Source: a virus. From it: a stretch of 64,000 bases of DNA. The stretch lies in IMG/VR virus record IMGVR_UViG_3300032401_000002, positions 1-64,000 of that record. One strand, given 5' to 3'. A program made the position numbers and the translations under genes. The notes beneath the pieces are model-generated. The model saw only the letters and a program-made list of their open reading frames with translations. It was not told the DNA's origin and searched no databases. Below are positions 14,194 to 56,578 of this stretch, one piece after another (positions within the stretch are counted from its first letter, which is position 1; each line of letters opens with the position of its first letter).

Positions 14194-17100
14194 CTAAGCA
14201 ATGTGCTCACCGATGGCTTCCGCGATGTGAGGGAACAACCCAGCGTTCGCCAACGTCTTGTAGACGATGTTGGACTCTGAGTAGTCGCCCTTGCCCTCGC
14301 GCATGTCACGGAATCTCTTCATGTGCAACAGATCCCAATAGATCTTGAGGGCCGGTGCGTTGTCGAAGCGGAGAAGCAGGCGCACCTTCTCCTCGCAATC
14401 CTTAGCGTAGCGAACGACAGCCGGGTACGTCTTATACACGTCGATGGTGCGCTGCCTCTCAGGCAGCACGATCCACTCGTCGTTGTCAAGATCGTAACCA
14501 CTGCGCAAGCCAGGCTTATAGAGATCATCAGGTTGAAATCTGTTTGTATCAACCACGAAGACCTGCAAGGGGTGTGTAGTGCCAGGGACAATGATCCCTT
14601 CGGCCTTCTCGATCATGAGGGCCACGAGATCTGATCTAACCCACTCGGGAAAGTTGTCCGTGTCGATCCAGAGACTGACATCAAAGTCACTGTCTGCGCT
14701 CCACTGATACGTCGTAAGACTACCCGTCAACACGAGCTTGAGGTACTTCTTGGGATCGGGCCACCCCGCTTCGGTCAAGATCTTGTAGACCTTGTTCTTC
14801 ACCCAAGCAACGTGCGTTGACTTGACAGTCGGAGAGGGCGAGTCTGCGTTCGTGAAGACAGCCGGATCTAGCTCCTCCTGGATGGGATCGAGGATGTTGG
14901 CATGCTTCTGCGGGATCGACTCGGGAGGAGTGCTCTGGGCGATCTGGAGCAACTGATCCTTGGTGTTCAGGGTCGGATCTTCGAGCACAAGCTCCACCAT
15001 GTGATTCAGAAGCGCACCCATCTGCGGGCCGGGCTTGAACCCCGCCGCGATCAGGTCACCACCGTTGATAGCCAGCATCTTGGTGTTGGTGGGTTCGCCA
15101 GCTTCACGCACGCCTTGGACAAGCTGCTGCATGCGAGGAACGTTACCATCCCATGCGGCACCCTTGCCACCCGAATCAGCCCAGCGCAGGTTCAGAAGAT
15201 CATCCGCGTGCTCGTCACCGACACGATTGATGAACTTGCGTGCGCCATTGGGTGCCTGGAAGGGCGGGAACATGTGCCATCTGACAAGGTGCTCGATGCG
15301 CTGAATGCGATCCACGGGAAACTTGAGTTCGGTCAACAGACGCTGCGTCATCTCGGCACCCAACTTCTCGTGATCTTGCCCCTCACCGTGCTCGTTCTCG
15401 TAGTAGTGGCCCCACCCCTCATCATCAAACCACTGACTACCGGGCTTCCCGATGTCGTGCAGAAGCGCAGCCCAGCGTACGTCCACGTCATCGGTCACCT
15501 GAGCCGTAAGGCGCAAGACCTCCTTGATGTGATCGTTGAGGAGCAGGCTGTGGTGCTTGTTCTTCTGATCGAAGCCAACCGTGTTGGCCACATCAGGCAG
15601 AACGTGCTCAAGGATGCCAGTGGTCTCCATGAGATCAACAGCCTTGGCGGGATCTGCACCACTCATGAGCTTGTCTAGCTCCATCATGACACGCTCACGA
15701 GGAAGCTCACTCAGGCTAGGAGCATGAGCGGCCATGTCGTGGTAGGTTTGTGGCGAAGGGTCAAGTCCATGGCGACTAACCGACGATAGCCCTCTAAGGA
15801 TGCGGAGAGGGTCTTCAGGGAAGGATCGGTCGGAGACAGTGTTGAGCAGTCCAGCTTTGAGATCCTCTGATCCACGGTAAGGGTCAACAAGGTCGCCGGT
15901 GGAGAGATTGACAGCCATTGCGTTGCCAGTAAAGTCCCGTCGTGCCAGATCCTGACCAACGCTAATGTAGGGGTCGGTGTAGACCTCAAAGTCCTTGTGT
16001 CCAGGCCCAGTGGATCGCTCAGTCCTCGGCATAGCGATCTCAACCTCGTTCCCCTCGGGATCGCGGTAGCGGAATACCCCGAACTGCTTACCCGTGTAGT
16101 CCACCCGACCGGGAAGAGCCTCCAGAGCTTCTTGAACGTCATCTTCGTCAACTCCTTGTACCATCAGGTCAACGTCCTTGGGTACCTTCCCCAGAACGAT
16201 GTCGCGTACGACACCACCCACCGCATAGACATTGCCCATGGGTTCGAGTGCCTGGAATGCCGCCCAAGCTGCCGGGTCGGTTGCTGCGATGTTGCGCACC
16301 TTGTGTCCGATGTTCGCCGATGCCAGCTTGTACTTCTCGTCGCCTACCATCAGAGTGATCGACTTGATGACTAACTCGGGATGCATTGCGTACCACAACT
16401 CGGCCATGTGTCGGACTGTGTAGGGCATGTCTGTGTTGGTGCGGATCTGAACATTGCCCTTGGGGTCATACAGCCCTTCCACGATGCCGCCCGGCGTGAA
16501 GCGCCCCTGGATGTCAGAGTGACGCTCGCCAGGATGGCCAACGTAGATGCGATCAGTCTCGATGTCAAAGATGTACGGGATGGGGCCAGCCAGCATCGGA
16601 GGCTGTGGCTTCGCTGCTGTCATCTGGAAGATTAGTCTCCCCTGCCTCTGCACGGTCTTGTCCATGATGTTCTCGTTGAAGTTGGCAGGCAGAACGTCGT
16701 CCATATCGACAACGGGTTGCGGATCAGTGGGGGGCTTTCTGTCAGGGTTGATGTGGAAACGCAGGGTGTGCTTGCGCCAGTCGTCGTAGTTGATGCATGC
16801 AGCCCCGCAGTCAGAGCACGTACGCGGAGCCGTCATCGGCATCTCGTCATCGGGGTCATTCATGTAGAAGGGCTTAGGACTCTGGGGATAGCCAGGGTTG
16901 TCGAACTGATCGGTGCCCGACCACTCATCCAGCTTGTAGTTGAGCAGACCGGGGTTGATCTCGCCGATGCCCTCGACAGAAGCCTGCTTGAGTGCCGTGC
17001 TCCCGTAGGGCATGCCCTCTTGATCCAACAGTCCGCCCCAGTCCCACCCTTGATCCTTCGTGTAGCGCTTGAGGCGCTTCTCGACCAAGTGGAGGGAGAT

Positions 17101-17391
17101 GTTGCTGTGCTTGATCGACCAGAACGCAGTCCATCGGAAGTGTAGCTCCAACTCGCCGAAGGCATGAGGGCGACTACCATCGTTCCACCCCATGGCCTTG
17201 AACTGATCTACGTGATGGTCATTGGACACACTCACATGCGTGCCACTCATGGCCCAGTTGTACTCGTCAGCAGGACGATCCAGAGGCGCGACAGAGTAAT
17301 CCTGACGGATCTGTGCCGCTTCGGCAGCGGCTTGTGGCTCCTCGCCCGGATAGGCGTCAGAACCGAGTAGGTCGGCAGACTTCTGCATCAC
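14194..17391 (-). CDS. multidomain protein: C2H2 finger + class II CCA tRNA nucleotidyltransferase + HD domain + second Pol-beta-type nucleotidyltransferase
   Basis: VGGVVRD..DVD, RRDFTGNAMA, EDPLRILR, LLHDIGKP, INGGDLI..GP; C-terminal 'LTGSLTTYQWSADSDFDV'. Confidence 0.9.
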   Translation of the reverse strand: MMQKSADLLGSDAYPGEEPQAAAEAAQIRQDYSVAPLDRPADEYNWAMSGTHVSVSNDHHVDQFKAMGWNDGSRPHAFGELELHFRWTAFWSIKHSNISLHLVEKRLKRYTKDQGWDWGGLLDQEGMPYGSTALKQASVEGIGEINPGLLNYKLDEWSGTDQFDNPGYPQSPKPFYMNDPDDEMPMTAPRTCSDCGAACINYDDWRKHTLRFHINPDRKPPTDPQPVVDMDDVLPANFNENIMDKTVQRQGRLIFQMTAAKPQPPMLAGPIPYIFDIETDRIYVGHPGERHSDIQGRFTPGGIVEGLYDPKGNVQIRTNTDMPYTVRHMAELWYAMHPELVIKSITLMVGDEKYKLASANIGHKVRNIAATDPAAWAAFQALEPMGNVYAVGGVVRDIVLGKVPKDVDLMVQGVDEDDVQEALEALPGRVDYTGKQFGVFRYRDPEGNEVEIAMPRTERSTGPGHKDFEVYTDPYISVGQDLARRDFTGNAMAVNLSTGDLVDPYRGSEDLKAGLLNTVSDRSFPEDPLRILRGLSSVSRHGLDPSPQTYHDMAAHAPSLSELPRERVMMELDKLMSGADPAKAVDLMETTGILEHVLPDVANTVGFDQKNKHHSLLLNDHIKEVLRLTAQVTDDVDVRWAALLHDIGKPGSQWFDDEGWGHYYENEHGEGQDHEKLGAEMTQRLLTELKFPVDRIQRIEHLVRWHMFPPFQAPNGARKFINRVGDEHADDLLNLRWADSGGKGAAWDGNVPRMQQLVQGVREAGEPTNTKMLAINGGDLIAAGFKPGPQMGALLNHMVELVLEDPTLNTKDQLLQIAQSTPPESIPQKHANILDPIQEELDPAVFTNADSPSPTVKSTHVAWVKNKVYKILTEAGWPDPKKYLKLVLTGSLTTYQWSADSDFDVSLWIDTDNFPEWVRSDLVALMIEKAEGIIVPGTTHPLQVFVVDTNRFQPDDLYKPGLRSGYDLDNDEWIVLPERQRTIDVYKTYPAVVRYAKDCEEKVRLLLRFDNAPALKIYWDLLHMKRFRDMREGKGDYSESNIVYKTLANAGLFPHIAEAIGEHIA

Positions 17392-46933: not shown

Positions 46934-48808
46934 GTGACCTCTAGTACCTTGATCGGCTCTGATAGCCGACAAATCCTTCAAGACTTGGTGCATTATCGCA
47001 CCTACGCAGGAACCCAGCAGAACGGTAAGAAAGAGACTCGCGAGCAAGTCATCGACAGAGTCCGGGACATGCACCAGACGATGTTCCCGTGGTTCTCGGA
47101 CGAAATCGCTGATGTCTTCCAGGAGGTTTACGCAGGACGGACAGTTCCTTCTATGCGTACCATGCAATTCGGTGGGATGCCCATCTTCAGAAGCAACGCG
47201 CGAGGGTACAACTGTGCCTTTGCTGCGCTGACCTCTTGGAAGGACTTCGCCGACATGTTCTGGCTCCTGATGAACGGAGTCGGCACTGGCTATTCCGTCC
47301 AGCAGCATCACATCGACCAGCTACCCGTGGTTCACGCATTCGAGGGGCAGACATTCACGGTGCCCGACTCGAAGGAGGGTTGGGCTGATGGAATCGTCGC
47401 TCTGCTCGCGAACCCCCAGGTCAAGATCATCACCGACCTGATTCGGCCCAAGGGTGCCCCGATCTCATCTGGTGGTACAGCCTCAGGCCCTGAGTCGTTG
47501 TCGGAGATGTACGAGAAAGTGAGAGCGATTCTCATTAGTGCTGTGGGCCGCAAGCTCACGTCACTGGAGTGCTTTGATGTCATGTGTCACATCGCAGACG
47601 TGGTTGTAGTCGGAGGCGTTCGACGCGCGGCAACAATTGCTCTCTTCGACGCTGACGACAACTCTATGCTCTCGGCCAAGCAAGGATCATGGTGGGAAGA
47701 CAACGCCCAGCGCATGAGGGCTAACATCTCAGCCGTCCTGGTTCGGAGCGATCCTAACTTTGAGACCAAGCTCCGTCACATCCTGGATATGTGCTTCAAG
47801 TCCAACTGCGGGGAGCCGGGCGTGTCGTTGACAAATGACAGGGAGTACGGATTTAACCCCTGCCATGAGATCAGCCTGCGTGATGGCCAGATGTGCAACT
47901 TGACTGAAGTCAACGCGGCGGCTTGCTCTACCGAAGCAGAGTTCTTCGACGCGGTGTCTTCGGCAGCAGCCATTGGCACGCTTCAGGCTGCCTACACAAA
48001 CTTCGAGTACCTTCAGCCGAAGTGGAAGAAGAACTGCGAGCTTGACGCTCTTCTCGGAGTTAGCATCACCGGCCAAGCTGCCGCGTGGGATCTGTTGACC
48101 CCTGAGGTCTTGGCGCGTGGAGCCGAAGAAGCCGCTCGTGTCAATCGCGAATGGGCACAGAAGCTGGGTATCAACTACGCCGCGCGGGTGACCACGACGA
48201 AGCCTTCTGGTTCTACTTCTGCGTGGTGGGGAACGACCAGTGGTATTCATGCCGCTCACTCCCCATACTACCTCCGTCGAGTTCGCGTTGACCGCAAGGA
48301 TGCATTCGGTCAGCACCTGATCGAGGCGTACGGCGAAGGCGAGGCCGAGTCGGGTTCCTTCGTGGAGTCGGACGCTTACGCGCCTGAGAACATCATCGTG
48401 ACGGTGCCCGTCCACATGAACGGGGCGATCTATCGCGAAGGCGAGACAGCTATCGCACTGATGGAGCGCTCGAAGCACATCTTCGAGAATTGGATCATGC
48501 CCGGCCACAGCACTGGCCCGAATCCTCACAACGTTAGCTTGACCGTGAGCTACCGACCCGAAGAGCAGGCAGAGATCACCGAGTGGATGGTAGACAACTC
48601 CGACTCATGGGCTGGCATCAGTCTCCTGCCCTACGACGGTGGCAACTATACCCAAGCTCCATTCGAAGAGATCAGCGAGCACGAGTTCTTCCAGTGGCTC
48701 AAGAAGGTACCAAGCGTTGTGGACTTTGGAGTCATCGACTTCACAGCACAAGTGGATGAGCGGTTGGGCGAGCTTGCATGCTTCGGCGGACAGTGCGAGG
48801 TCATCTGA
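46934..48808 (+). CDS. nrdJ: class II (AdoCbl-dependent) ribonucleotide reductase
   Basis: 'YNCAF', 'GGVRRAA', 'NPCHEI..CNLTE', 'TTTKPSGS', C-terminal CxxxxC. Confidence 0.92.
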   Translation: MTSSTLIGSDSRQILQDLVHYRTYAGTQQNGKKETREQVIDRVRDMHQTMFPWFSDEIADVFQEVYAGRTVPSMRTMQFGGMPIFRSNARGYNCAFAALTSWKDFADMFWLLMNGVGTGYSVQQHHIDQLPVVHAFEGQTFTVPDSKEGWADGIVALLANPQVKIITDLIRPKGAPISSGGTASGPESLSEMYEKVRAILISAVGRKLTSLECFDVMCHIADVVVVGGVRRAATIALFDADDNSMLSAKQGSWWEDNAQRMRANISAVLVRSDPNFETKLRHILDMCFKSNCGEPGVSLTNDREYGFNPCHEISLRDGQMCNLTEVNAAACSTEAEFFDAVSSAAAIGTLQAAYTNFEYLQPKWKKNCELDALLGVSITGQAAAWDLLTPEVLARGAEEAARVNREWAQKLGINYAARVTTTKPSGSTSAWWGTTSGIHAAHSPYYLRRVRVDRKDAFGQHLIEAYGEGEAESGSFVESDAYAPENIIVTVPVHMNGAIYREGETAIALMERSKHIFENWIMPGHSTGPNPHNVSLTVSYRPEEQAEITEWMVDNSDSWAGISLLPYDGGNYTQAPFEEISEHEFFQWLKKVPSVVDFGVIDFTAQVDERLGELACFGGQCEVI

Positions 48809-49095
48809 TGAACCTCAAGCAAGAGATCCGTCACGGCGAGGTCATCATCGACTTCTATGCTGAGTGGTGTGGCCCGTGCCACGCCGTGGCCCCTGTCCTT
48901 GACAAGGTCAGCCTTGACACGGGCATCAAGATCGTCAAGGTAGACATTGACGCCGAGCGCGAGATCAGCGAGACGTTCGGGGTTGTGTCCATCCCGACGA
49001 TGGTCTACATGATCAATGGAGACGAACAGGCTCGCGTCACTGGCGCTCTCCCTAAGGACAAGTTGATGGCTGCTTTGGGGATCATCGGCACGTAG
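48808..49095 (+). CDS. thioredoxin
   Basis: WCGPC. Confidence 0.93.
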   Translation: MNLKQEIRHGEVIIDFYAEWCGPCHAVAPVLDKVSLDTGIKIVKVDIDAEREISETFGVVSIPTMVYMINGDEQARVTGALPKDKLMAALGIIGT

Positions 49096-49097
49096 GG

Positions 49098-49130
49098 TTG
49101 ACTGCCTTGTGGGTCGTGTGCTACAGTTAG
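49098..49130 (+). promoter_or_regulatory. promoter of the RNA island
   Basis: TTGACT-N18-TACAGT-TAG with extended TG. Confidence 0.7.
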
Positions 49131-49483
49131 ACCTCAAGTGTGAAGCGCCTCTGCTAACGAGGCACCGAGATCGGGAACGCCCTCTCTGACCCCCTCGGTG
49201 AAAGAAAGAGAGGGCCGTGGCCCCGTGGAGACGGGGCAAAGATTTCAACTGCTTCTGAACCGTGTACTATAATTTGGGGGCAAGCAGTTACTGAAGGTAT
49301 ACCGATGGTGTAGTTTGCCATCTGATCGCCTGGCTCTTCGGAGCAGGGAGATACATAGTTCGGGTAGCCCATCTGGCGCAGCATTGCTACGGGGATCGCA
49401 ACCGAGGCAGATGCCGAACGAAGTAGAGTTTCGAGACTGGGGGTCGATCCCCAAGGTTGGCCCCCAGTCTCAAAGTTTATCGT

Positions 49484-49555
49484 CGCGGATTGGAGCAGTG
49501 GTAGCTCGCTAGGCTCATAACCTAGAGGTCGTTGGTTCGAATCCATCATCCGCTA
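49484..49555 (+). tRNA. tRNA-Met(CAT), initiator-like
   Basis: Cloverleaf, C1:U72 mismatch, loop CTCATAA. Confidence 0.9.
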
Positions 49556-49915
49556 TGAGGCCACCGCCCTAATACCCACGGGTAGTCGGGTTGTGCTGGC
49601 CTCTCTAGCTCAGGTGTATAACAGGACGGCTTGCCGTCTGAGGCCACCTGGGAACGGGTACGGGGTGGAGGCTGGTCGCCGTCTGCTTGTGGTGTAGCGT
49701 CGTCTTCGGACGGGGTGTAATCCGCAGGTTTGATATAGAGCAGTCCCACTCCGTCCCACCTATCCCTTTCTAGCTCACACAAGACTGTCGCGAAAGCGGC
49801 ACCACACGCGCATCTATGCGCGGATTGAGCAGGGTGGCACACAACCTTGACCAAAAGAGTGTGTCTGCGCATGAGATCGCAGGAACCATCTCACGGGCAT
49901 GGCCCGTTACAGCCA
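49556..49915 (+). ncRNA. unassigned large structured RNA
   Basis: Multiple complementary stems with GNRA/UUCG loops between tRNAs. Confidence 0.45.
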
Positions 49916-49920
49916 TACTA

Positions 49921-49994
49921 CAGCGTGTAGCTCAGTCTGGTAGAGTGTCCGTCTGGGGGACGGAGAGTCGAGGGTTCGAGTCCCTCCACGCTGA
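49921..49994 (+). tRNA. tRNA-Pro(GGG)
   Basis: Cloverleaf. Confidence 0.9.
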
Positions 49995-50002
49995 TAGCAT
50001 GA

Positions 50003-50078
50003 CTGGATGTAGCTCAGTTTGGTTCAGAGTACCCGATTCGGATTCGGGGAGTCGGAGGTTCGAATCCTCCCATCCAGA
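50003..50078 (+). tRNA. tRNA-Pro(CGG)
   Basis: Cloverleaf. Confidence 0.9.
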
Positions 50079-50082
50079 TAGA

Positions 50083-50157
50083 CAGGTCGTAGCTCAGTCT
50101 GGTAAGAGTGCCCGCCTTGGACGCGGGGAGTCGGTGGTTCGAATCCACCCGGCCTGA
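50083..50157 (+). tRNA. tRNA-Pro(TGG)
   Basis: Cloverleaf. Confidence 0.9.
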
Positions 50158-50391
50158 TACCTCCTATCCTGAGGGGGAACCCCGCGTTGACCGTGGGATC
50201 GTAAGCGCGTCTCGGCGCTCGTGGAAACTACCCGGACATAGGCGGGCAAGTCTGCGAGAACAACCTGGGGCGAAGCGCGTACCCTGCGCGAGCGGTTAAC
50301 AGAGCACAAGGTTTACATGGTTCGGCTCGTCGTGATGGTCTGTCGCGCTCCTTGTGCCGCGCGATGGATGGCAGGCCATCCTGAGCAACTT

Positions 50392-50755
50392 GGGCATGCC
50401 CGGTTTCGACAGTCGTGTATGGGCAATGAGATGCAGCGGGTCGCGGCCTTATCGCGCCAAGCCTTGGACAGGGCAACCACATGCAGACGACAACATCGTC
50501 TCCACGGACTACATCGACAACGGCATCGCCGCTCTCGAAGACTTCCTCGCGGAAGCGTCCCTCGTCACGGTCTAGCGAGTACCAATAGACCGCTGTGTCG
50601 CCCAGCTTAGGCGACTGACTGCTCGGAAAGTGACGAGTTGACCCGGAGAGGGAAAGTCCTCTGCCCTGGTGGAGGGCACACAGCCCCCAAAGAAGCTGCT
50701 AGAAGTCTTGTTGTAACCGCTCGGTTGGACGAGGGTTCGACTCCCTCCATGTCCA
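50392..50755 (+). ncRNA. ssrA: tmRNA
   Basis: GGGCATG/CATGTCC-A acceptor with G3:U70, 5' GGTTTCGAC, 3' T-arm GAGGGTTCGACTCCCTC, internal tag ORF 50483-50575. Confidence 0.92.
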
Positions 50756-50901
50756 CTGCAAGAATCAAGAAATCCCCTAGGGGCGTCGTTGTCTGCTACC
50801 AGTTCCGCAGGAGCAGCCAGGTGCGGAACACCTGCGAGGCGTATGAGGGAGAGTCACGAGAGTGACACGGAGATGTCTTTCCCTAGGGGCATCTCTCACA
50901 C

Positions 50902-50970
50902 GCGGAGTAGGCTAAGGCAGCCAAGTGGTCTCCAACACCACAGGACAGGGTTCGATTCCTTGACGCCGCG
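50902..50970 (+). tRNA. tRNA-Trp(CCA), atypical small D-arm
   Basis: GTGGT-CTCCAAC-ACCAC anticodon arm, T-arm, G73. Confidence 0.75.
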
Positions 50971-51055
50971 CTTCATCACTGAAAGGTTCGAGGGTTGACT
51001 GAAGGTACGGTTCGTCTGCTCACGGCAGGCAGCTAGGCTTCAGCAGTGATGGCAT

Positions 51056-51129
51056 GCCCCGTTAGTCTAACGGTTCAGGATACCACCCTCTCACGGTGGG
51101 GATTGCGGGTTCGAATCCCGCACGGGGTA
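51056..51129 (+). tRNA. tRNA-Glu(CTC)
   Basis: Cloverleaf. Confidence 0.9.
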
Positions 51130-51170
51130 CTGCCTTCGGGCACTGGGCCACGCAGCATCAGTGGCATCAC

Positions 51171-51242
51171 TGGAGGGTAGCTCAATGGTAGAGTGTCCCG
51201 CTGTTAACGGGGTGGTTCTGGGTTCGAGTCCCAGCCTTCCAG
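51171..51242 (+). tRNA. tRNA-Asn(GTT)
   Basis: Cloverleaf. Confidence 0.9.
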
Positions 51243-51254
51243 CTTGCAACACAT

Positions 51255-51328
51255 GGCCTGTTCGTCTAGCGGTCTAGGATACCGGGCTTTCAACTCGGAC
51301 GACAAGGGTTCGAATCCCTTACGGGCTA
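51255..51328 (+). tRNA. tRNA-Glu(TTC)
   Basis: Cloverleaf. Confidence 0.9.
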
Positions 51329-51427
51329 CTGACGGTGCCACGAGCCGTCGTAAGCAACTCGTGGTCGTGAACAGAGAGGGACGACGGGAAACCGTCCTCT
51401 GACACGGATGAGAAAGCTCCCACACCT

Positions 51428-51500
51428 TAGAGGGTGGTCTAATCGGCAGGACGCCAGGCTCTGACCCTGGAGATTGAAGGTTCGATCCCTTCCCCTCTAG
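51428..51500 (+). tRNA. tRNA-Gln(CTG)
   Basis: Cloverleaf. Confidence 0.9.
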
Positions 51501-51505
51501 CTCTC

Positions 51506-51577
51506 AACAGGGTAGACTAACGGTAGGTTCCCTGGCCTTGAACCAGGTCGGTCTAGGTTCGAATCCTAGCCCTGTTA
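51506..51577 (+). tRNA. tRNA-Gln(TTG)
   Basis: Cloverleaf, weak D-stem. Confidence 0.82.
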
Positions 51578-51662
51578 CTGCAACAAGATTGCCACGCCCC
51601 TATGCCGGGGCCAATCTAGGCGGGTATTGCGCCCGTGTGTCCAGGTGAAAGCCCTGGCTTAT

Positions 51663-51737
51663 GCCCCTCTAGCCCAACTGGCCAGAGGCAACGGCTTTAA
51701 AGACCGTTCAGTGAAGGTTCGAATCCTTCGGGGGGCA
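51663..51737 (+). tRNA. tRNA-Leu(TAA), short variable loop
   Basis: Cloverleaf, loop TTTAAAG. Confidence 0.8.
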
Positions 51738-51793
51738 CTGAAGGACACGCACGTCTGCGCGAAGGGGTTGCTCCCGGAGAGCTTAGGGCGTCC

Positions 51794-52083
51794 GTGGTGG
51801 TGTGGCCGAGTAGGACTGGATTCCTCTCCACGAGGGGTACAGTTGCGAAGGCACAACCGGCGAAAGTGACGGGCAACCGGCACGAGTAGTAGCCGCGACA
51901 AGGGTGTTGCGTTCGGCCAGAGCCAATCGGTGAGGTCGGTCTCAGTCAGCACTCGTCTGGGAGTAGTTACCTGGGCAGACGGTGGCGCTTGACAGCGCAG
52001 GGAAGGTACGACCGAAACTGTAGCCATTGACATGGACAAGCAGTGGATAGGTCGTCGGAGGGTTGCTGAATCCCTTCCACCAC
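51794..52083 (+). ncRNA. unassigned large multibranch RNA
   Basis: Closed by GTGGTGG/CCACCAC; many internal stems. Confidence 0.45.
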
Positions 52084-52121
52084 TCCTTCTATCTCTTTCT
52101 CCCCGCACAGTAACTAGCACT

Positions 52122-52301
52122 ATGGCGGGAATCATGATCAGGTGCTCAGGCACGAAGGACGGGGTACATTGTGCCCGGTACACTCGTTTCATTGGAGCGC
52201 CGAATGTTGACTGGACGTGCGAAGGGTGCCTTGCTGGTCGAGCACCATTCGAGCACAAGTCGAAGGTTGTCCAGCAGCAGATGAAGCACAAGAAGAAGTA
52301 G
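52122..52301 (+). CDS. small Cys-rich protein inside the RNA island
   Basis: 59 aa, C..HC..CxxC, Lys-rich tail. Confidence 0.45.
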   Translation: MAGIMIRCSGTKDGVHCARYTRFIGAPNVDWTCEGCLAGRAPFEHKSKVVQQQMKHKKK

Positions 52302-52304
52302 CTT

Positions 52305-52378
52305 ACCTCGCTAGCTCAAACGGATAGAGCAAGGGTCTTTTAAACCCAAGGTTCTGGGATCGTACCCCAGGCGAGGTA
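52305..52378 (+). tRNA. tRNA-Lys(TTT)
   Basis: Cloverleaf, T-loop ATCGTAC. Confidence 0.88.
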
Positions 52379-52380
52379 CT

Positions 52381-52536
52381 CTTGAACGACTATTCGGCTC
52401 CTCTGGACGCTGCGCGGCTTCACCACCGCTCGACTCCATGTGGTTCATGGAGGGTCAAGGTTGTTGACGGTAGGCACGCTCGCGACGTAGCCGAAAGACA
52501 GCTTACCGAAGGGCAAGACCGCACTGGTCGTTCAAG
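52381..52536 (+). ncRNA. long irregular hairpin RNA
   Basis: CTTGAACGAC/GTCGTTCAAG terminal stem with nested stems. Confidence 0.45.
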
Positions 52537-52541
52537 TTATT

Positions 52542-52615
52542 GGATCGCTAGCTCAGTTAGGCAGAGCAGGGGACTCTTAATCCCAAGGTCGTCGGTTCGA
52601 TCCCGACGCGATCCA
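52542..52615 (+). tRNA. tRNA-Lys(CTT)
   Basis: Cloverleaf. Confidence 0.9.
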
Positions 52616-52635
52616 CTGGCCGCAAGGCCGACAGG

Positions 52636-52717
52636 GCCGGAAGGGCGAGGGTTCGAATCCCTCCCGGACAAGGAGCTTCGGCTCACCGTCCGGTAGCTCA
52701 GTGGGAGAGCGTCCGGC
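52636..52717 (+). ncRNA. circularly permuted tRNA-like RNA (YrlA-like topology)
   Basis: Order is T-arm, acceptor 3' strand, UUCG hairpin, acceptor 5' strand, D-arm; closed by GCCGGA/TCCGGC. Confidence 0.8.
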
Positions 52718-52722
52718 GTTAT

Positions 52723-52805
52723 GCTCTGGTGGTGGAATTGGTATACACACTAGCCTTAGAAGCTAGCGCCCACAGGGATTGAGGGTTCGACTCCCTCCTA
52801 GAGCA
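52723..52805 (+). tRNA. tRNA-Leu(TAG)
   Basis: Cloverleaf with long variable arm. Confidence 0.9.
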
Positions 52806-52857
52806 CTAGGTAGACGTACCGAGACCCAGCGGATGGGTCAACCTAAAGTCCGCACCC

Positions 52858-52941
52858 GCGCTCGTGATGGAATGGGTAGACATGCTAGGTTGAGAGCCTA
52901 GTGGCCGCGAGGTCGTGCAGGTTCAAGTCCTGCCGTGCGCA
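52858..52941 (+). tRNA. tRNA-Leu(GAG)
   Basis: Cloverleaf with long variable arm. Confidence 0.88.
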
Positions 52942-52942
52942 T

Positions 52943-53012
52943 AGGATGGTAGCCCAACAGAGAGGCAGCCCGACAAGGGAAGAGTTGCCGGAATCGAGTC
53001 CGGCCCATCCGA
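52943..53012 (+). ncRNA. tRNA-like RNA with truncated anticodon arm
   Basis: GGATGG/CCATCC acceptor, D-arm, CCC-GACAA-GGG mini arm, GCCGG/CCGGC T-arm. Confidence 0.55.
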
Positions 53013-53016
53013 CCCT

Positions 53017-53090
53017 GGTACGCTAGCTCAATTGGTAGTAGCGTTCGGTTGAAGCCCGAAAGGTTCTCGGTTCAAGTCCGAGGCGTACCA
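53017..53090 (+). tRNA. tRNA-Phe(GAA)
   Basis: Cloverleaf. Confidence 0.9.
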
Positions 53091-53100
53091 CTGTAGTATT

Positions 53101-53175
53101 GCCCTCTTAGCCCAATCCGGCAGAGGCACCAGCCTCAAACCCTGGTCAGTGGAGGTTCGACTCCTCCAGAGGGCA
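53101..53175 (+). tRNA. tRNA-Leu(CAA), short variable loop
   Basis: Cloverleaf. Confidence 0.82.
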
Positions 53176-53189
53176 TAGTACCACCACAT

Positions 53190-53264
53190 GCGGATCGTAG
53201 CTCAATCGGTCAGAGTCGTGGCTTGTGAAGCCATCGGTTGCGGGTTCGAATCCCGTCGATCCGC
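53190..53264 (+). tRNA. tRNA-His(GTG) with encoded G-1
   Basis: Cloverleaf, G-1:C73. Confidence 0.9.
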
Positions 53265-53271
53265 CTTGTAC

Positions 53272-53344
53272 GTGCGAATGGCTCAGTAGGTAGAGCATCT
53301 GGTTGCCAATCAGAAGGTCGCGGGTTCGAACCCCGCTTCGCACA
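53272..53344 (+). tRNA. tRNA-Gly(GCC)
   Basis: Cloverleaf. Confidence 0.9.
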
Positions 53345-53465
53345 TCGGTAGCTGGTTGGCGAGTCCTTCCCATGCAGCCTGGGCGACCTGAGTCTCGGCC
53401 GAGATGAGGGAACCTTGTGAATCGGGTCGTTGGCCAACTTGTGCAAACCATCCAGGTGCCGTCCT

Positions 53466-53539
53466 GCTCCATAAGCTCAGTCTGGCAGAGCGCTGGTCTT
53501 GTAAATCAGGGGTTGTCGGTTCGATCCCGACATGGAGCT
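53466..53539 (+). tRNA. tRNA-Thr(TGT)
   Basis: Cloverleaf. Confidence 0.9.
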
Positions 53540-53542
53540 TAC

Positions 53543-53615
53543 GACCCGGTAACTCAGTGGACAGAGTCACGGTTTCCTAAACCGTTGGTCACAGGTTCGA
53601 CTCCTGTCCGGGTCA
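53543..53615 (+). tRNA. tRNA-Arg(CCT)
   Basis: Cloverleaf. Confidence 0.9.
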
Positions 53616-53620
53616 TGTTT

Positions 53621-53693
53621 GGCCTGTTAGCTCAGTGGACAGAGCGTGGGGCTTCTATCCCCAGCGTCGGAGGTTCGATCCCTCCACGGGCCA
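53621..53693 (+). tRNA. tRNA-Arg(TCT)
   Basis: Cloverleaf. Confidence 0.9.
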
Positions 53694-53834
53694 CTTTACA
53701 CAAGACGCTCGAAGCGTCCTTGTACTAGATGATGCCCTTCGGGGCCGGGCGGGGCGATCCATTGGCCTGGGAACAGAACGAGGTCGAACACGACGGGTGA
53801 CAGTTGAACGGCGGGACGCCCGGTGCCCGCACAT

Positions 53835-53906
53835 GCGAAGGTAACTCAACGGTAGAGTCTCAGTTTTCCAAACTGGTGGTTGCGGGTTCGATTCCCGTCC
53901 TTCGCT
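53835..53906 (+). tRNA. tRNA-Gly(TCC)
   Basis: Cloverleaf. Confidence 0.9.
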
Positions 53907-53951
53907 CTCGGTGGGTGAGTCCAGGTTCGCCCTGTAAGTAGCCCACCGCTA

Positions 53952-54024
53952 CGCTGTGTAGCTCAGTTGGTAGAGCAATCCCCTCATAAGGGAGAGGTCG
54001 GAGGATCGTAGCCTCCCATAGCGA
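53952..54024 (+). tRNA. tRNA-Met(CAT), elongator or Ile2
   Basis: Cloverleaf, T-loop ATCGTAG. Confidence 0.85.
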
Positions 54025-54130
54025 CTTCGGTCAGTGCTTAGGCACAGGACAACGAACCTCCCAAGACCCGGTACGACTCCACAACATGGGTGGAGCAACG
54101 TTCTGATCAAAAGCCGGGTTGGCCGAACAC

Positions 54131-54201
54131 GCTCCTATAGCTCATGTGGAAGAGTCATCCTTCGTACGGATGTGGTCGCAGTTCGACTCTGCGTGGGAGC
54201 T
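54131..54201 (+). tRNA. tRNA-Thr(CGT)
   Basis: Cloverleaf. Confidence 0.85.
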
Positions 54202-54204
54202 TGC

Positions 54205-54276
<72 letters not shown>

Positions 54277-54385
54277 TGCAACAAGACTCTCCTCGATGCG
54301 TGAGGGGCTGCTCACCAGCCCGCAAAGCGCAAACACGGGAGATAGACCGGGCGAACGGGAGTGAGCTTCGCCTGGTCGAACTTTC

Positions 54386-54458
54386 GGCCTGTTAGCTCAG
54401 CGGACAGAGCGAGTGGCTTCGAACCACTAGGTCGGGGGATCGTACCCCTCACAGGCCA
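54386..54458 (+). tRNA. tRNA-Arg(TCG)
   Basis: Cloverleaf. Confidence 0.9.
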
Positions 54459-54468
54459 TGTAGTACCT

Positions 54469-54540
54469 GGTTTCGTACGAATCTGGTGAAACGGTTCCCC
54501 TGTCACGGGAATGAGGCGGGTTCGATTCCCGTCGAGACCG
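54469..54540 (+). tRNA. tRNA-Asp(GTC), weak D-stem
   Basis: Acceptor GGTTTCG/CGAGACC-G, loop CTGTCAC. Confidence 0.8.
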
Positions 54541-54691
54541 CTATGGGCTGTAGAGTCCTGGGGTGTTGGAGAATCCCCGAAGCTGCGAGGTAGACCAACC
54601 TCCTCGCGGCCTCTAGTCGCGCTCCTTGAAAGCTGGCCCGCAAGGCCGGTGGAAGTATCGGGCAAAACCGACGCGACTCATTCAGGGCCTG

Positions 54692-54763
54692 GGGCGGTTA
54701 GCTCAGTGGGAGAGCAGGTTCTTTACACGTACAAGGTCGGGGGTTCGAATCCCTCACCGCCCA
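54692..54763 (+). tRNA. tRNA-Val(TAC), mismatched anticodon stem
   Basis: Cloverleaf. Confidence 0.8.
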
Positions 54764-54879
54764 TACCAGGATTCAGCGCTAGTGTGCCTGCCTGGGGCCG
54801 AACCACCCGTATGCCGGTGGGGGAATCAGCACCCGAGGGTACTCGGAGTTCAGGTGCGAACCCTGAGCGCTATTGAACG

Positions 54880-54953
54880 TGACCCGTAGCTCAGTGGTAA
54901 GAAGCGGGAGGCTTATATCCTCTTGGTCGTGGGTTCGATTCCCACCGGGTCAA
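54880..54953 (+). tRNA. tRNA-Ile(TAT)
   Basis: Cloverleaf, loop CTTATAT. Confidence 0.85.
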
Positions 54954-54954
54954 T

Positions 54955-55190
54955 CACGAACGGAAAGACAAGCGCGGTCGCAAGATCGAGGAAAGTCAGG
55001 CCACCTGAACCAGGGGAGACCAATGCAACCTGGGGAAACGTGACGAGGACGTGGGAGAAGGTCGCAAGGTCTTCGGCTTACCACCTAATCGGCGGGGTGC
55101 AACCTCAAGCGGACGGTCATCTCAGACCGGACAGGTAGAGGGCACAGATAGATGCTTGTCCTAGACAGAAGCCTGCTTACGAAGTTCGTG
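54955..55190 (+). ncRNA. rnpB: RNase P RNA, miniature
   Basis: GAGGAAAGTC and ACAGAAGCCTGCTTAC (P4), AGATAGATG, P1 CACGAAC/GTTCGTG, P2 GACAAGC/GCTTGTC, P15 with GGU. Confidence 0.88.
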
Positions 55191-55244
55191 TACACATGAG
55201 AGTGGTTTGGCGGTCGTGACCCATACCTCACGCGCTCTCACCTT

Positions 55245-55317
55245 TGGCTCGTAGCTCAGTTGGGAGAGCACTTGATTGACATTCAAGAGGTCGTCGGATC
55301 GAGGCCGACCGAGCCAA
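55245..55317 (+). tRNA. tRNA-Val(GAC)
   Basis: Cloverleaf. Confidence 0.88.
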
Positions 55318-55388
55318 CTTGCCCACCCGTCGCGTTGTAGGGGAGTGGCATAAGCCCCCGTCTGTTGCAACGCCAGCCGGGGGAACTC

Positions 55389-55462
55389 GCGGTTGTAGCT
55401 CAGTGGAATAGAGTATCAGGTTGCGAACCTGAGGGTCGCTGGTTCGAATCCAGCCAATCGCA
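55389..55462 (+). tRNA. tRNA-Arg(GCG)
   Basis: Cloverleaf, TCAGG-TTGCGAA-CCTGA. Confidence 0.9.
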
Positions 55463-55653
55463 CTCAGCACTACAAGTTTGGGGACGGCCCCGTCAGGCCC
55501 CTTCCCAACGCTACCTCTGGCGAGATAGGGGTCGTGTCAACTCGACCACGAAAGTGTCGGGGCGCTGCGAATCACAGAGCGTGTTATCTGTGGTCGTCTG
55601 CCGGGAGACTACCCCGTGTCAAACCAGGTGTAGCTGACGGCTCGCCTGGCCTA

Positions 55654-55727
55654 GGACTTGTAGCTCAGTGGTATAGAGCATCCGTCTGATACGCGGAGGG
55701 TCGGTGGTTCGACTCCACCCAAGTCCA
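55654..55727 (+). tRNA. tRNA-Ile(GAT)
   Basis: Cloverleaf. Confidence 0.92.
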
Positions 55728-55849
55728 TGAGAAGTAGCTCAGATGCCATCTCGCATGTGTCTCCCGGCCAGAGCCGGATAGGGTGCATGCGGGGCAGAGC
55801 GGGCCGATGATCACGGTCGCGACGAGGGGCTGGCAATCCTCCTTCTCTA
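55728..55849 (+). ncRNA. tRNA-like RNA with ~45-nt hairpin inserted in the D-loop
   Basis: GAGAAG/CTTCTC acceptor, GCTC/GAGC D-stem, GGCCG-ATGATCA-CGGTC arm, non-canonical T-loop. Confidence 0.65.
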
Positions 55850-55852
55850 CAT

Positions 55853-55923
55853 AGTGATGTGACCGAGAGGCCAGGTCGTTGGCTGCAACCCTTCGCACAG
55901 CGGTTCGAATCCGCTCATCACTT
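55853..55923 (+). tRNA. tRNA-Cys(GCA)
   Basis: Cloverleaf, U73, U:U mismatches in the anticodon stem. Confidence 0.82.
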
Positions 55924-55927
55924 CTTC

Positions 55928-56001
55928 GGGCGGCTAGCTCAATTTGGGAGAGCAACGCGCTTGCACCGCGTAGGTTGGGGGTTCAAGTCCCCCGCTGTCC
56001 A
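55928..56001 (+). tRNA. tRNA-Ala(TGC)
   Basis: Cloverleaf, G3:U70. Confidence 0.9.
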
Positions 56002-56003
56002 CT

Positions 56004-56103
56004 ACCGAAAGAACGGGTTCGAATCCCGGCCGCGCGACCCAAGCTAGAGGGGTATACACCAAAGGCGAAGGTCTGATCAGTAGTGTAAGGGCAGCACGTC
56101 GGT
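56004..56103 (+). ncRNA. second permuted tRNA-like element
   Basis: ACCGA...T-arm...insert...D-arm TAGTGTAAGGGCAGCACG...TCGGT. Confidence 0.55.
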
Positions 56104-56110
56104 TTAACTT

Positions 56111-56186
56111 GGGTTGTGGGGCTGCATGGGGTGGCCATCTCGCTTGCACCGAGAACAACAGCAGGGTTCGATTCCCTGACGATCCA
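56111..56186 (+). tRNA. tRNA-Ala(TGC), second atypical copy
   Basis: G3:U70, TCTCG-CTTGCAC-CGAGA. Confidence 0.78.
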
Positions 56187-56278
56187 CTAGGAAGCAGAAG
56201 CACGCAGATGACTCGTAGGTGTTCTAGAAACCAGGGCCGTAACGCAACCGTGCCCCATCAGCGCTGCATCCTACTCGT

Positions 56279-56362
56279 GGTAGGTTACTCAAGTGGTTAC
56301 GAGAGCGGGTTGCTAACCCGTCAAGTCGCAAGGCTTCCTGGGTTCGAATCCCAGACCTACCG
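56279..56362 (+). tRNA. tRNA-Ser(GCT)
   Basis: Cloverleaf, long variable arm. Confidence 0.9.
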
Positions 56363-56367
56363 TACCA

Positions 56368-56451
56368 GGAAGGTCGCATTGGCGTGCTTATGCGGTTTGA
56401 ACCCGTTGATGGGGCTAATCCCCCGTGGGAGTTCGACTCTCCCACCTTCCT
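56368..56451 (+). tRNA. tRNA-Ser(TGA), atypical D-arm
   Basis: GGAAGGT/ACCTTCC acceptor, long variable arm. Confidence 0.75.
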
Positions 56452-56455
56452 CTTT

Positions 56456-56536
56456 GCTGGCGCTTGCTCAATGGTGAGGGCTACTGGCTGTAACCCAGAA
56501 GACACGTCTATGGGGGTTCGACTCCTCCCGCCAGCA
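56456..56536 (+). tRNA. tRNA-Tyr(GTA)
   Basis: Cloverleaf. Confidence 0.85.
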
Positions 56537-56542
56537 CTCCGC

Positions 56543-56578
56543 GACACCCCTGCATCCTTCGGGATGTGGGGGTGTTTC
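56543..56578 (+). terminator. terminator-like hairpin ending the RNA island
   Basis: GACACCCCTGCATCC-TTCG-GGATGTGGGGGTGTTT. Confidence 0.7.

What the first reader, a model, noticed from the sequence alone, without database searches (positions are those of the whole stretch)
49098..56578. Phage-encoded tRNA maturation/repair system: 39 CCA-less tRNAs, tmRNA, own RNase P RNA and own CCA enzyme
Seen: one promoter-to-terminator island holds 39 tRNAs covering all 20 amino acids plus a tmRNA. None is followed by an encoded CCA. An RNase P RNA sits inside the array, and a CCA-adding/HD enzyme is encoded at 14194-17391. Nearly every spacer is structured RNA. Known: RNase P makes tRNA 5' ends; class II CCA enzymes with HD domains add CCA and repair 2',3'-cyclic phosphate ends. 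Inference: the phage supplies both 5' and 3' maturation and could rebuild the tRNA pool if host tRNAs or processing are destroyed, for example by anticodon-nuclease defence.
Basis: partly seen in the sequence, partly recalled or inferred. Interest (0 to 1): 0.88.

Follow-up and report, generated by a model that had tools for sequence, protein, structure and literature searches.

The report
Phage tRNA operon encoding RNase P
A 150-kb uncultured phage carries one 7.4-kb block with 39 tRNA genes that lack their CCA ends, a tmRNA and a shrunken copy of the RNase P ribozyme, plus a giant CCA-adding enzyme elsewhere, so it brings much but not all of the tRNA-finishing machinery, and I found no paper describing a virus-encoded RNase P RNA.

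Summary
The core observation holds. ARAGORN finds 39 same-strand tRNA genes (49483-56537) covering all 20 amino acids. Rfam finds a tmRNA above threshold (50392-50758). None of the 39 tRNAs has CCA after the discriminator. A 242-nt RNA (54954-55195) matches bacterial type A RNase P RNA at E about 1e-13 but scores below Rfam's cut-off (49 against 100 bits). It keeps P1-P5, P15, the P4 pseudoknot with its bulged U, CR-I/IV/V and the GGU loop. It lacks P18, and its specificity domain is only about 90 nt. Across 34 distinct relatives its helices covary strongly. Thirty of 38 IMG/VR contigs with such reduced RNAs carry tRNA genes nearby. ORF 14194-17391 is a conserved 1065-aa class II CCA/HD enzyme with all catalytic motifs and a probable second nucleotidyltransferase domain. 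"Nearly every spacer is structured" is overstated; about half are. The phage lacks RnpA, RNase Z, RtcB, RNA ligase and SmpB matches, so it still depends on the host, and the anti-defence reading is untested. Reduced P RNAs also occur in CCA-encoding phage arrays. This scan has reported similar phage mini RNase P RNAs on other DNA. I found no published description.

The parts
49098..49127 (+). sigma-70-like promoter candidate (TTGACT-18 nt-TACAGT, TG before -10), 3 nt after the thioredoxin-like ORF 48778-49095
   Evidence: the count of such sites in the region is not above chance, so weak
49483..50157 (+). tRNA-Met(CAU; mismatched 1-72 pair, initiator-like), tRNA-Pro GGG, CGG, UGG
50392..50758 (+). 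tmRNA with G3:U70, no encoded CCA, and a 30-aa tag ADDNIVSTDYIDNGIAALEDFLAEASLVTV read from 50483
   Evidence: a tmRNA sits at the same place in L004
50902..52616 (+). tRNAs Trp, Glu, Asn, Glu, Gln, Gln, Leu(UAA), Lys, Lys
52636..52718 (+). YrlA-type tRNA mimic: outer stem, T-arm (52647-52663), acceptor-like stem closed by a UUCG hairpin, D-arm (52695-52710)
   Evidence: Rfam RF02553 33.4-33.7 bits (below the cut-off of 69), E 4e-6 in the local search, aligned to model positions 23-85; fold
52723..54953 (+). 18 tRNAs from Leu(UAG) to Ile(UAU); the discriminator of tRNA-Ile(UAU) is the base just before the P RNA
54954..55195 (+). reduced type A RNase P RNA, 242 nt. Numbering from 54954: P1 2-8/231-237; P2 14-20/201-207; P3 22-26/31-35 (GCAA loop); P4 40-42,44-47/219-225 with U43 bulged; P5 49-52/143-146; specificity domain 53-142; A148 A149 (J5/15); P15 150-153/185-188; hairpin 161-165/172-176; GGU 181-183; CR-IV 191-201; CR-V 212-226; no P18
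55245..56537 (+). tRNAs Val(GAC), Arg(GCG), Ile(GAU), Cys, Ala, Ala (atypical), Ser, Ser, Tyr; same order as in L004 and L002
56543..56576 (+). 15-bp G+C-rich hairpin (UUCG loop) followed by a weak U tract: terminator candidate
   Evidence: z -3.8; not picked up by the consensus terminator scan
16234..17391 (-). N-terminal 386 aa of the 1065-aa protein: conserved module of unknown fold with invariant Cys192, Cys195, His208, His213 (zinc-finger-like)
14932..16233 (-). class II CCA-adding nucleotidyltransferase head/neck plus HD domain (aa 387-820): GGVVRD392, D406xD408, RRD484, EDPLR526, H644-D645
14194..14931 (-). C-terminal about 245 aa: probable second Pol-beta-type nucleotidyltransferase domain (G-S ... 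D902-F-D904)
   Evidence: pLDDT 89; minimal NTases, Z 6.6, rmsd 3.5 over 97 aa: middling

Best explanation
The island is a single-strand, probably polycistronic tRNA operon of a lytic-type tailed phage. It supplies decoders for every amino acid. If U34 reads all four codons in the Ala and Ser boxes, it covers every sense codon. It also holds a tmRNA and a miniaturised type A RNase P RNA.

Proposed mechanism:
- The 242-nt RNA is cut out of the precursor by the same reactions that free the tRNAs. It starts one base after the discriminator of tRNA-Ile(UAU) and ends about 50 nt before tRNA-Val(GAC).
- It folds into a complete catalytic domain and binds the host's RnpA protein.
- It adds RNase P capacity to cut the 5' leaders, which also separates the closely packed tRNAs.
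- Host nucleases (RNase Z type or exonucleases) remove the short trailers, which begin with U or CU.
- The phage's own class II CCA-adding/HD enzyme then builds the CCA end on tRNAs and tmRNA.

Shown: the genes, their motifs, the RNA's fold conservation and its association with tRNA arrays. Inferred: transcription as one unit, catalytic activity, use of host RnpA, and the order of the steps.
For: - Phage identity: portal, terminase, rIIA/B and replication genes, in an IMG/VR record rated 93% complete.
- 39 tRNAs plus a tmRNA on one strand, and none elsewhere in the genome.
- The P RNA matches the full RF00010 model at E 4e-13 to 2e-15.
- CR-I, CR-IV, CR-V, the bulged U in P4, A-A in J5/15 and GGU in L15 are all retained.
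- Across 34 distinct relatives, 96.5% of cells are paired against 67% in shuffles and about 40% when partners are slid. 34 of 44 pairs show double changes. This includes a P4 pair that was not part of the search model (AU 22, CG 7, GC 4).
- Compensatory changes in P1, P2 and P5 separate the window from its nearest relatives L004 and L045.
- L004 and L002 have the same tRNA order, with the P RNA at the same place.
- 30 of 38 viral contigs with such reduced RNAs carry at least 3 tRNA genes in the fetched locus. One of the reduced RNAs (L007) passes Rfam's cut-off at 136 bits.
- The CCA enzyme has motifs A, B, D and HD. It is conserved full length at 50-84% identity on 150-220 kb contigs, and at 64% in L002's record.
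- No tRNA or tmRNA encodes CCA, so a CCA adder is obligatory.
- The trailers carry a non-random U/CU start.
- Literature: RNase P can separate polycistronic tRNA transcripts in E. coli (PMC2190699, title and abstract seen). RNase P cleaves CCA-less precursors, and RNase Z cuts after the discriminator only when CCA is absent (PMC1874595).
Against: - The Rfam score is half the gathering score. About 140 model positions of the specificity domain could not be aligned.
- I could not recognise the T-loop-docking modules (CR-II/III), and P18 is absent.
- No RNase P protein gene is present, so activity depends on an unverified cross-species RNA-protein pairing.
- No expression data could be obtained.
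- No promoter or terminator evidence rises above chance.
- No cultured relative was found for testing.
- Reduced P RNAs also occur in phage arrays whose tRNAs encode CCA. The P RNA and the CCA-less/CCA-enzyme pairing are therefore separable traits, not one obligate system.
Confidence: 0.6

Rival explanations
1. Counter-defence kit. The array, P RNA and CCA/HD enzyme exist mainly to replace or mend tRNAs destroyed by host tRNA-targeting defences (anticodon nucleases, CCA-end nucleases) or by the phage's own host shut-off.
For: The set covers all amino acids and includes tRNAs for codons the phage itself hardly uses (TTA 1%, ATA 3%, AAA 5% of their families). This fits replacement of a whole pool better than codon-bias tuning. 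The HD domain is intact. From my own knowledge, not re-read here, the E. coli Cca HD domain has 2',3'-cyclic phosphodiesterase and phosphatase activities.
Against: No RtcB, no Rnl2-type ligase and no supported Rnl1-type ligase were found. Broken anticodon loops therefore cannot be resealed by phage genes. Nothing identifies the host or its defences. This reading is compatible with the best explanation rather than exclusive of it.
Confidence: 0.2
2. The 242-nt RNA is not an enzyme during infection. It is a mimic that soaks up host RnpA, or binds pre-tRNAs, to slow host tRNA maturation or to time phage tRNA release.
For: The specificity domain is drastically reduced, and no phage RnpA exists. 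A catalytic-domain-only RNA would still present the protein-binding surface.
Against: Every nucleotide block tied to catalysis is conserved across very divergent phage copies: CR-I, the P4 bulged U, J5/15 A-A, CR-IV, CR-V and L15 GGU. A decoy would not need that. Also, 39 phage pre-tRNAs themselves need RNase P.
Confidence: 0.1
3. Decaying remnant of a captured bacterial rnpB gene with no present function.
For: It scores below Rfam's cut-off and has lost P18 and most of P7-P14.
Against: There are compensatory substitutions in every helix. Position is conserved in syntenic arrays from independent samples. The same reduced design recurs in at least 38 viral contigs.
Confidence: 0.04
4. Assembly or binning artefact: a bacterial rnpB or tRNA region wrongly joined to a phage contig.
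For: The record is a metagenome assembly with no terminal repeats.
Against: Phage genes flank the array on both sides (ribonucleotide reductase and thioredoxin-like upstream, SNF2 helicase and rIIA/B downstream). G+C content is uniform. The same array order is seen in two other viral contigs.
Confidence: 0.02

Closest known systems
Bacterial type A RNase P RNA (E. coli M1 RNA / rnpB; Rfam RF00010)
   Same: P1-P5, P15 and a P16/17-like hairpin; the P4 pseudoknot with bulged U; CR-I GAGGAAAGUC; CR-IV; CR-V ACAGAA..C.GCUUA; A-A in J5/15; GGU in L15.
   Different: It is 242 nt, against about 350-400 nt by my own knowledge. It has no P18. Its specificity domain is about 90 nt with no alignable P7-P14 or CR-II/III. 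It scores 49 bits against the cut-off of 100. It is encoded by a virus inside a tRNA operon, and no rnpA lies in the same genome.
Naturally reduced RNase P RNAs (Pyrobaculum type T; Mycoplasma fermentans 276 nt), from my own knowledge and not tested here
   Same: The catalytic domain is retained while the specificity domain is lost or shrunk.
   Different: Those are cellular and essential, and each pairs with its own proteins. This one is a bacterial type A core in a phage. Rfam's best clan match here is type A.
Phage tRNA clusters and phage tmRNAs (T4, T5, large actinophages), from my own knowledge. Tested here: five cultured actinophages with about 30%-identical DnaE have no RF00010 match.
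   Same: Many tRNAs clustered on one strand, some lacking CCA; a tmRNA within the cluster; a phage-encoded tRNA nucleotidyltransferase family (phrog_2244).
   Different: This array is a complete 20-amino-acid set, uniformly CCA-less, with an RNase P RNA embedded in it. No P RNA was found in Rhodococcus phage E3, Gordonia phages SCentae, Skog and RedWattleHog, or Saccharomonospora phage PIS136.
Class II CCA-adding enzymes with HD domain (E. coli Cca; B. stearothermophilus 1miv)
   Same: Head-domain motifs A, B and D, the RNA-binding neck and the HD dyad. Best PDB sequence match is 1miv, E 3.5e-23.
   Different: It is 1065 aa, against 404-525 aa for the best-matching solved class II chains. It has a 386-aa N-terminal module with a Cys2His2 site and no fold match. 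It also has a C-terminal second Pol-beta-type NTase-like domain.
YrlA, the bacterial Y RNA-like tRNA mimic (Rfam RF02553)
   Same: The same permuted order: stem, T-arm, closed acceptor hairpin, D-arm, stem. The T- and D-loop sequences are canonical.
   Different: It scores below the cut-off (33 against 69 bits). No Rsr-binding stem aligned, and the phage has no Rsr/TROVE gene.

Membership tests
RNaseP_bact_a (RF00010) | Score at or above Rfam's gathering threshold (100 bits) | tested here: not met
   49.4 bits, E 4e-13 to 2e-15, over the full model span 1-367 with three large local-end jumps
RNaseP_bact_a (RF00010) | P4 pseudoknot with bulged U, flanked by CR-I and CR-V | tested here: met
   AAG(U)CAGG pairs with CCUGCUU. 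The variable P4 pair covaries (AU 22, CG 7, GC 4) and was not part of the search model.
RNaseP_bact_a (RF00010) | Catalytic-domain helices P1, P2, P3, P5 and P15 supported by covariation | tested here: met
   93-98% of cells are paired per helix; 24 of 27 pairs in these five helices show double changes (34 of 44 over all eight helices); slid controls give about 40%. Caveat: the alignment was fitted to the model.
RNaseP_bact_a (RF00010) | L15 GGU motif that pairs with the tRNA 3' RCC | tested here: met
   G181 G182 U183; kept in most phage copies
RNaseP_bact_a (RF00010) | Specificity domain P7-P14 with CR-II/CR-III T-loop modules, and P18 | tested here: not met
   Only 90 nt lie between the P5 strands. 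Rfam could not align about 140 model positions. P18 (24 positions) is absent.
RNaseP_bact_a (RF00010) | Pre-tRNA 5' cleavage activity | not testable with these tools
   Needs an in-vitro or complementation assay
Class II CCA-adding enzyme | Motif A (GGxVRD...DxD), motif B (RRD), motif D (EDxxR) | tested here: met
   GGVVRD392, D406-V-D408, RRD484, EDPLR526; PF01743 1.5e-21, PF12627 9e-15
Class II CCA-adding enzyme | HD phosphohydrolase domain | tested here: met
   PF01966 5.5e-13 at residues 620-711; H644-D645
Class II CCA-adding enzyme | CCA specificity, as opposed to A-adding, CC-adding or poly(A) polymerase | not testable with these tools
   Sequence matches both CCA enzymes and poly(A) polymerases in the PDB. 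The genome context (0 of 39 encoded CCA) argues for CCA addition.
tmRNA (RF00023) | Score above the gathering threshold, a tRNA-Ala-like acceptor with G3:U70, and an in-frame tag ending in a stop | tested here: met
   56.7 bits against 47; acceptor GGG.../...UCC; a 30-aa tag from GCA at 50483 to TAA. ARAGORN did not call it.
YrlA (RF02553) | Gathering score, and an Rsr-binding stem beside the tRNA-like module | tested here: not met
   33.4-33.7 bits against 69. Only model positions 23-85 align when the spacer is searched alone. No TROVE gene is present.

The most novel reading that the evidence does not exclude
The 242-nt RNA is a catalytically active, virus-encoded ribozyme. It is a natural minimal type A RNase P RNA that forms a hybrid holoenzyme with the host's RnpA. 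Having shed the tRNA-elbow-reading domain, it relies on its retained GGU loop. That loop pairs with the C74(U75) that begins most of the phage's CCA-less trailers. C74 is kept in 23 of 39 trailers here, and in 29 of 29, 18 of 18 and 10 of 10 in other CCA-less phage arrays. Processing of the phage precursor is thereby coupled to CCA synthesis by the phage's two-nucleotidyltransferase enzyme.
Probability: 0.4. Interest if true: 0.88.

Novelty: new variant of a known kind. Interest (0 to 1): 0.76.

Why it matters
As far as I could find in the searchable literature, RNase P RNA has been described only as a cellular and organellar ribozyme. A family of phage-encoded copies of about 220-270 nt would be the first viral RNase P ribozymes.

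It would also give a natural series of minimal type A RNAs. These would show which parts of the specificity domain are dispensable.

It would show that large phages take over tRNA 5' processing, not only tRNA supply and CCA addition.

The uniform U/CU trailer start, the retained GGU loop and the giant CCA enzyme with a second nucleotidyltransferase-like domain give concrete, testable hypotheses. They bear on how substrate recognition works without encoded CCA.

Tried and rejected
- **Related loci from the neighbouring gene.** The search for related loci with the adjacent ribonucleotide reductase found no relatives.
- **Close or cultured relatives.** Megablast of the island and blastn of three different phage P RNAs against 50,697 deposited phage genomes gave nothing beyond tRNA fragments. 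RF00010 on five cultured actinophages with about 30%-identical DnaE gave no match. tblastn of the CCA protein's N-terminal module gave no match. No cultured relative was found.
- **Consensus folding.** RNAalifold on three sequences gave a wrong, pseudoknot-blind fold. I used a hand-drawn structure and a covariance model instead.
- **Specificity-domain fold.** I could not derive a convincing fold for it. Two hairpins (57-61/76-80 and 104-110/115-121) are kept through base changes in L045 and L004. The rest is unresolved.
- **N-terminal module.** The AlphaFold model was poor (pLDDT 61) and had no Foldseek match.
- **RNA ligase.** A weak Rnl1 hit (11.7 bits, 44595-44993) was not backed by Pfam or PHROGs and was dropped.
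- **Missing paper.** Pellegrini et al. 2003 on RNase Z (PMC202377) is not held. The idea that U74 favours RNase Z rests on my memory only.
- **Literature.** Searches with six term sets found no paper on a phage or virus RNase P RNA.
- **Complex prediction.** Complex prediction was not used. The question concerns an RNA-protein pair, which it does not cover.

Full report
**What the DNA is.** The window is the first 64 kb of a 150,167-bp IMG/VR virus record rated 93% complete, with 57% G+C. It is a genuine tailed phage. The window encodes a portal protein (phrog_2833, 6.5e-160) and a large terminase. It also encodes rIIA and rIIB, a DnaB-like helicase, a primase, a UvsX-like recombinase and a DnaE-type polymerase. 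No deposited phage genome is close. The DnaE is only about 30% identical to those of 135-152 kb actinophages.

**The tRNA and tmRNA observation.**
- ARAGORN tRNA genes, all on the + strand between 49483 and 56537, for all 20 amino acids. There are none elsewhere in the genome.
- Rfam confirms 37 of them at gathering score.
- tRNA-Ser(UGA) scores only as a weak Sec-type hit.
- The second tRNA-Ala(UGC), 56111-56187, is seen only by ARAGORN. It has an irregular D-arm but keeps G3:U70.
- There are 37 different anticodons. By standard wobble rules (my own knowledge) they read every sense codon, provided U34 reads all four codons in the Ala and Ser boxes.
- The set includes tRNAs for codons the phage barely uses: TTA 1%, ATA 3% and AAA 5% of their families.
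- Rfam finds a tmRNA at 50392-50758, 56.7 bits against a cut-off of 47. It has a G3:U70 acceptor and a 30-residue tag ending LVTV. A tmRNA sits at the same place in the syntenic array L004.

**The 3' ends.**
- A strict test located the 3' acceptor strand by complementarity to the first seven bases, then read the three bases after the discriminator. By this test 0 of 39 tRNAs have CCA. The tmRNA also ends A-CUG.
- Absence of CCA alone is not beyond chance (P=0.54).
- The trailers are far from random, though. 23 begin C-U and 13 begin U, so 36 of 39 fit one rule (P=6e-18).

**The RNase P RNA.**
- At relaxed threshold Rfam reports RNaseP_bact_a at 54954-55195. The match is 242 nt, 49.4 bits (cut-off 100), E 4e-13 in the island and 2e-15 in the genome, and spans the whole model.
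- Read by hand, it has P1, P2, P3 (GCAA loop) and the P4 pseudoknot with its bulged U. It also has P5, the two J5/15 adenosines, P15, a P16/17-like hairpin, the L15 GGU, CR-IV and CR-V.
- P18 is missing.
- Only 90 nt lie between the two P5 strands. Rfam could not align about 140 model positions there.
- I recognise two hairpins in this stretch that are kept through base changes in the two nearest relatives. I could not find the T-loop modules of CR-II/III.

**Relatives of the P RNA.**
- Exact CR-I...CR-V patterns at reduced spacing (120-210 nt) occur in 38 IMG/VR contigs. A narrower scan found 25 metagenome contigs.
- 30 of the 38 viral loci hold at least three tRNA genes. 28 have a tRNA within 1.5 kb of the element.
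- L004 (89.5 kb) and L002 (41 kb) have the same tRNA order as the window, with a tmRNA after the Pro tRNAs. The P RNA lies just before Val(GAC)-Arg-Ile-Cys-Ala-Ala-Ser-Ser-Tyr.
- L045, a 2-kb contig with 17 tRNAs, has the nearest P RNA (77% identity).

**Covariation.**
- A covariance model built from the window's RNA and my structure found 38 copies.
- On their alignment (34 distinct rows), 96.5% of cells form standard pairs. Shuffles give 67%, and sliding the partners gives 34-41%.
- 34 of 44 pairs show changes on both sides.
- P4 was not in the model, yet its variable pair covaries (AU 22, CG 7, GC 4).
- The alignment was fitted to the model for the other helices, which inflates pairing. The controls, and the visible compensatory changes against L004 and L045 in P1, P2 and P5, make chance or decay unlikely.
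- Rfam scores of other phage copies range from 45 to 136 bits, so one passes the curated cut-off.

**What the phage does not encode.** Six-frame profile searches of the genome found none of the following:
- RNase P protein
- RNase Z-type metallo-beta-lactamase
- RtcB
- Rnl2-type ligase
- SmpB
- PTH2
- Rsr/TROVE

A weak Rnl1 hit was not supported by other searches. The record is 93% complete, so absence is probable, not certain.

**The CCA enzyme.**
- ORF 14194-17391 (-) is 1065 aa. Residues 387-820 match PolyA_pol head, its RNA-binding domain, HD and tRNA_NucTran2_2, and phrog_2244 tRNA nucleotidyltransferase at 7.6e-73. The best solved relative is the B. stearothermophilus CCA enzyme.
- Motifs A (GGVVRD...DVD), B (RRD) and D (EDPLR) and the HD dyad are present.
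- The whole length is conserved. It is 64% identical over residues 2-1065 in L002's record. It is 50-84% identical in about 30 proteins from contigs of up to 223 kb.
- The N-terminal 386 aa have invariant Cys192, Cys195, His208 and His213. The model is poor and has no fold match.
- The C-terminal about 245 aa fold confidently (pLDDT 89) and carry a G-S...D-x-D signature. They resemble minimal and other Pol-beta-type nucleotidyltransferases at middling scores (Foldseek E 8e-4; VIA Z 6.6 over 97 residues). I call this a probable second nucleotidyltransferase domain of unknown substrate.

**Spacers and transcription signals.**
- The 27 spacers fold on average better than shuffles (mean z -1.8). 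Only 10 reach z below -2.
- In 13 of 25 spacers, the two ends pair with each other, so the trailer of one tRNA pairs with the leader of the next.
- Apart from one spacer (55728-55852), they are not conserved in L004.
- Spacer 52617-52722 holds a YrlA-type tRNA mimic.
- A sigma-70-like site at 49098-49127 and a strong hairpin at 56543-56576 sit at the stated ends of the island. This is suggestive only.

**How it most likely works.**
- Shown: the genes, motifs, fold conservation and genomic association.
- Inferred: the block is transcribed as one or a few long precursors.
- The P RNA begins one base after the discriminator of tRNA-Ile(UAU) and ends about 50 nt before tRNA-Val(GAC). The cuts that free the flanking tRNAs would therefore also free it.
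- With a complete catalytic domain but no phage protein partner, it would have to bind the host's RnpA. From my own knowledge, the catalytic domain of bacterial P RNA is active with the protein.
- RNase P is known to separate polycistronic tRNA transcripts in E. coli (PMC2190699) and to cleave CCA-less precursors (PMC1874595).
- RNase Z cuts after the discriminator only when CCA is absent (PMC1874595).
- The U/CU trailer start fits a host 3' nuclease step, followed by CCA synthesis by the phage enzyme.
- The retained GGU loop together with C74 in most trailers suggests residual trailer pairing. C74 is kept in 23 of 39 trailers here, and in 29 of 29, 18 of 18 and 10 of 10 in other CCA-less phage arrays. 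This is speculation.

- The P RNA is not tied to CCA-less genes. L045, L006, L007, L010 and L016 encode CCA in 14 of 17 to 19 of 19 tRNAs.
- Nothing in the sequence points to repair of cleaved anticodons. Defence evasion remains a possibility, not a finding.

**Novelty.**
- Six literature searches found no report of a phage or virus RNase P RNA.
- This scan has already reported the same kind of element on other DNA (e1-1035272, e1-3605993, e1-5367886, e1-5392627, e1-5632758, e1-5644670).
- I class it as a new variant of a known kind: a viral, miniaturised type A RNase P RNA inside a complete CCA-less tRNA operon, beside an unusually large CCA enzyme.

Noticed in passing
window 52636-52718 (+): A tRNA-like RNA in permuted order: stem, T-arm, acceptor stem closed by a UUCG hairpin, D-arm, stem. 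It aligns to the tRNA-like module of YrlA (33 bits, below the cut-off). No Rsr/TROVE gene is in the phage, and no Rsr-binding stem was recognised. A first-reader note calls it a permuted tRNA gene.
   Followed up: partly
window 14194-14931 and 16234-17391 (-): The CCA enzyme is fused to a probable second Pol-beta-type nucleotidyltransferase domain (C-terminus). It also has a 386-aa N-terminal module with an invariant Cys2His2 site and no fold match. The fusion is conserved in about 30 proteins from large contigs.
   Followed up: partly
window, the base(s) after each tRNA discriminator, 49483-56537: 36 of 39 trailers start with U or C-U (P=6e-18). Other CCA-less phage arrays with a mini P RNA keep C74 in all their tRNAs (L012 29/29, L008 18/18, L017 10/10).
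   Followed up: partly
window 50483-50575: The tmRNA tag is long (30 aa) and ends ...ASLVTV, not the usual ...ALAA. The relatives' tags end LVAA (L004) and LVNA (L008). No SmpB gene is in the phage.
   Followed up: no
window spacers, e.g. 50972-51055, 52380-52541, 53345-53465, 54542-54691, 56188-56277: In 13 of 25 spacers the first and last bases pair with each other, so the trailer of one tRNA is base-paired to the leader of the next. The purpose is unknown (folding insulation, RNase III sites or exonuclease blocks).
   Followed up: partly
window 49128-49482 and 49557-49920 (+): Two spacers of about 360 nt at the head of the array fold much better than shuffles (z -3.0 and -4.0). They match no Rfam family, and no conserved ORF was seen. 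The 566-nt spacer 51739-52304 shows no excess structure and no family match for its ORFs.
   Followed up: no
window 56111-56187 (+): The second tRNA-Ala(UGC) is atypical: extra bases before a G-U-rich D-stem, and no match to Rfam's tRNA model. It keeps the G3:U70 alanine identity pair.
   Followed up: partly
L008 2438-2853 (+): A GOLLD RNA (200 bits, above the cut-off) lies in another phage tRNA array that also carries a tmRNA and a mini RNase P RNA.
   Followed up: no
window 22176-23495 (-): A 439-aa protein beside the portal gene has a calcineurin-like metallophosphoesterase domain (residues 180-411) and an unassigned 178-aa N-terminus. Any role in RNA end healing was not examined.
   Followed up: no
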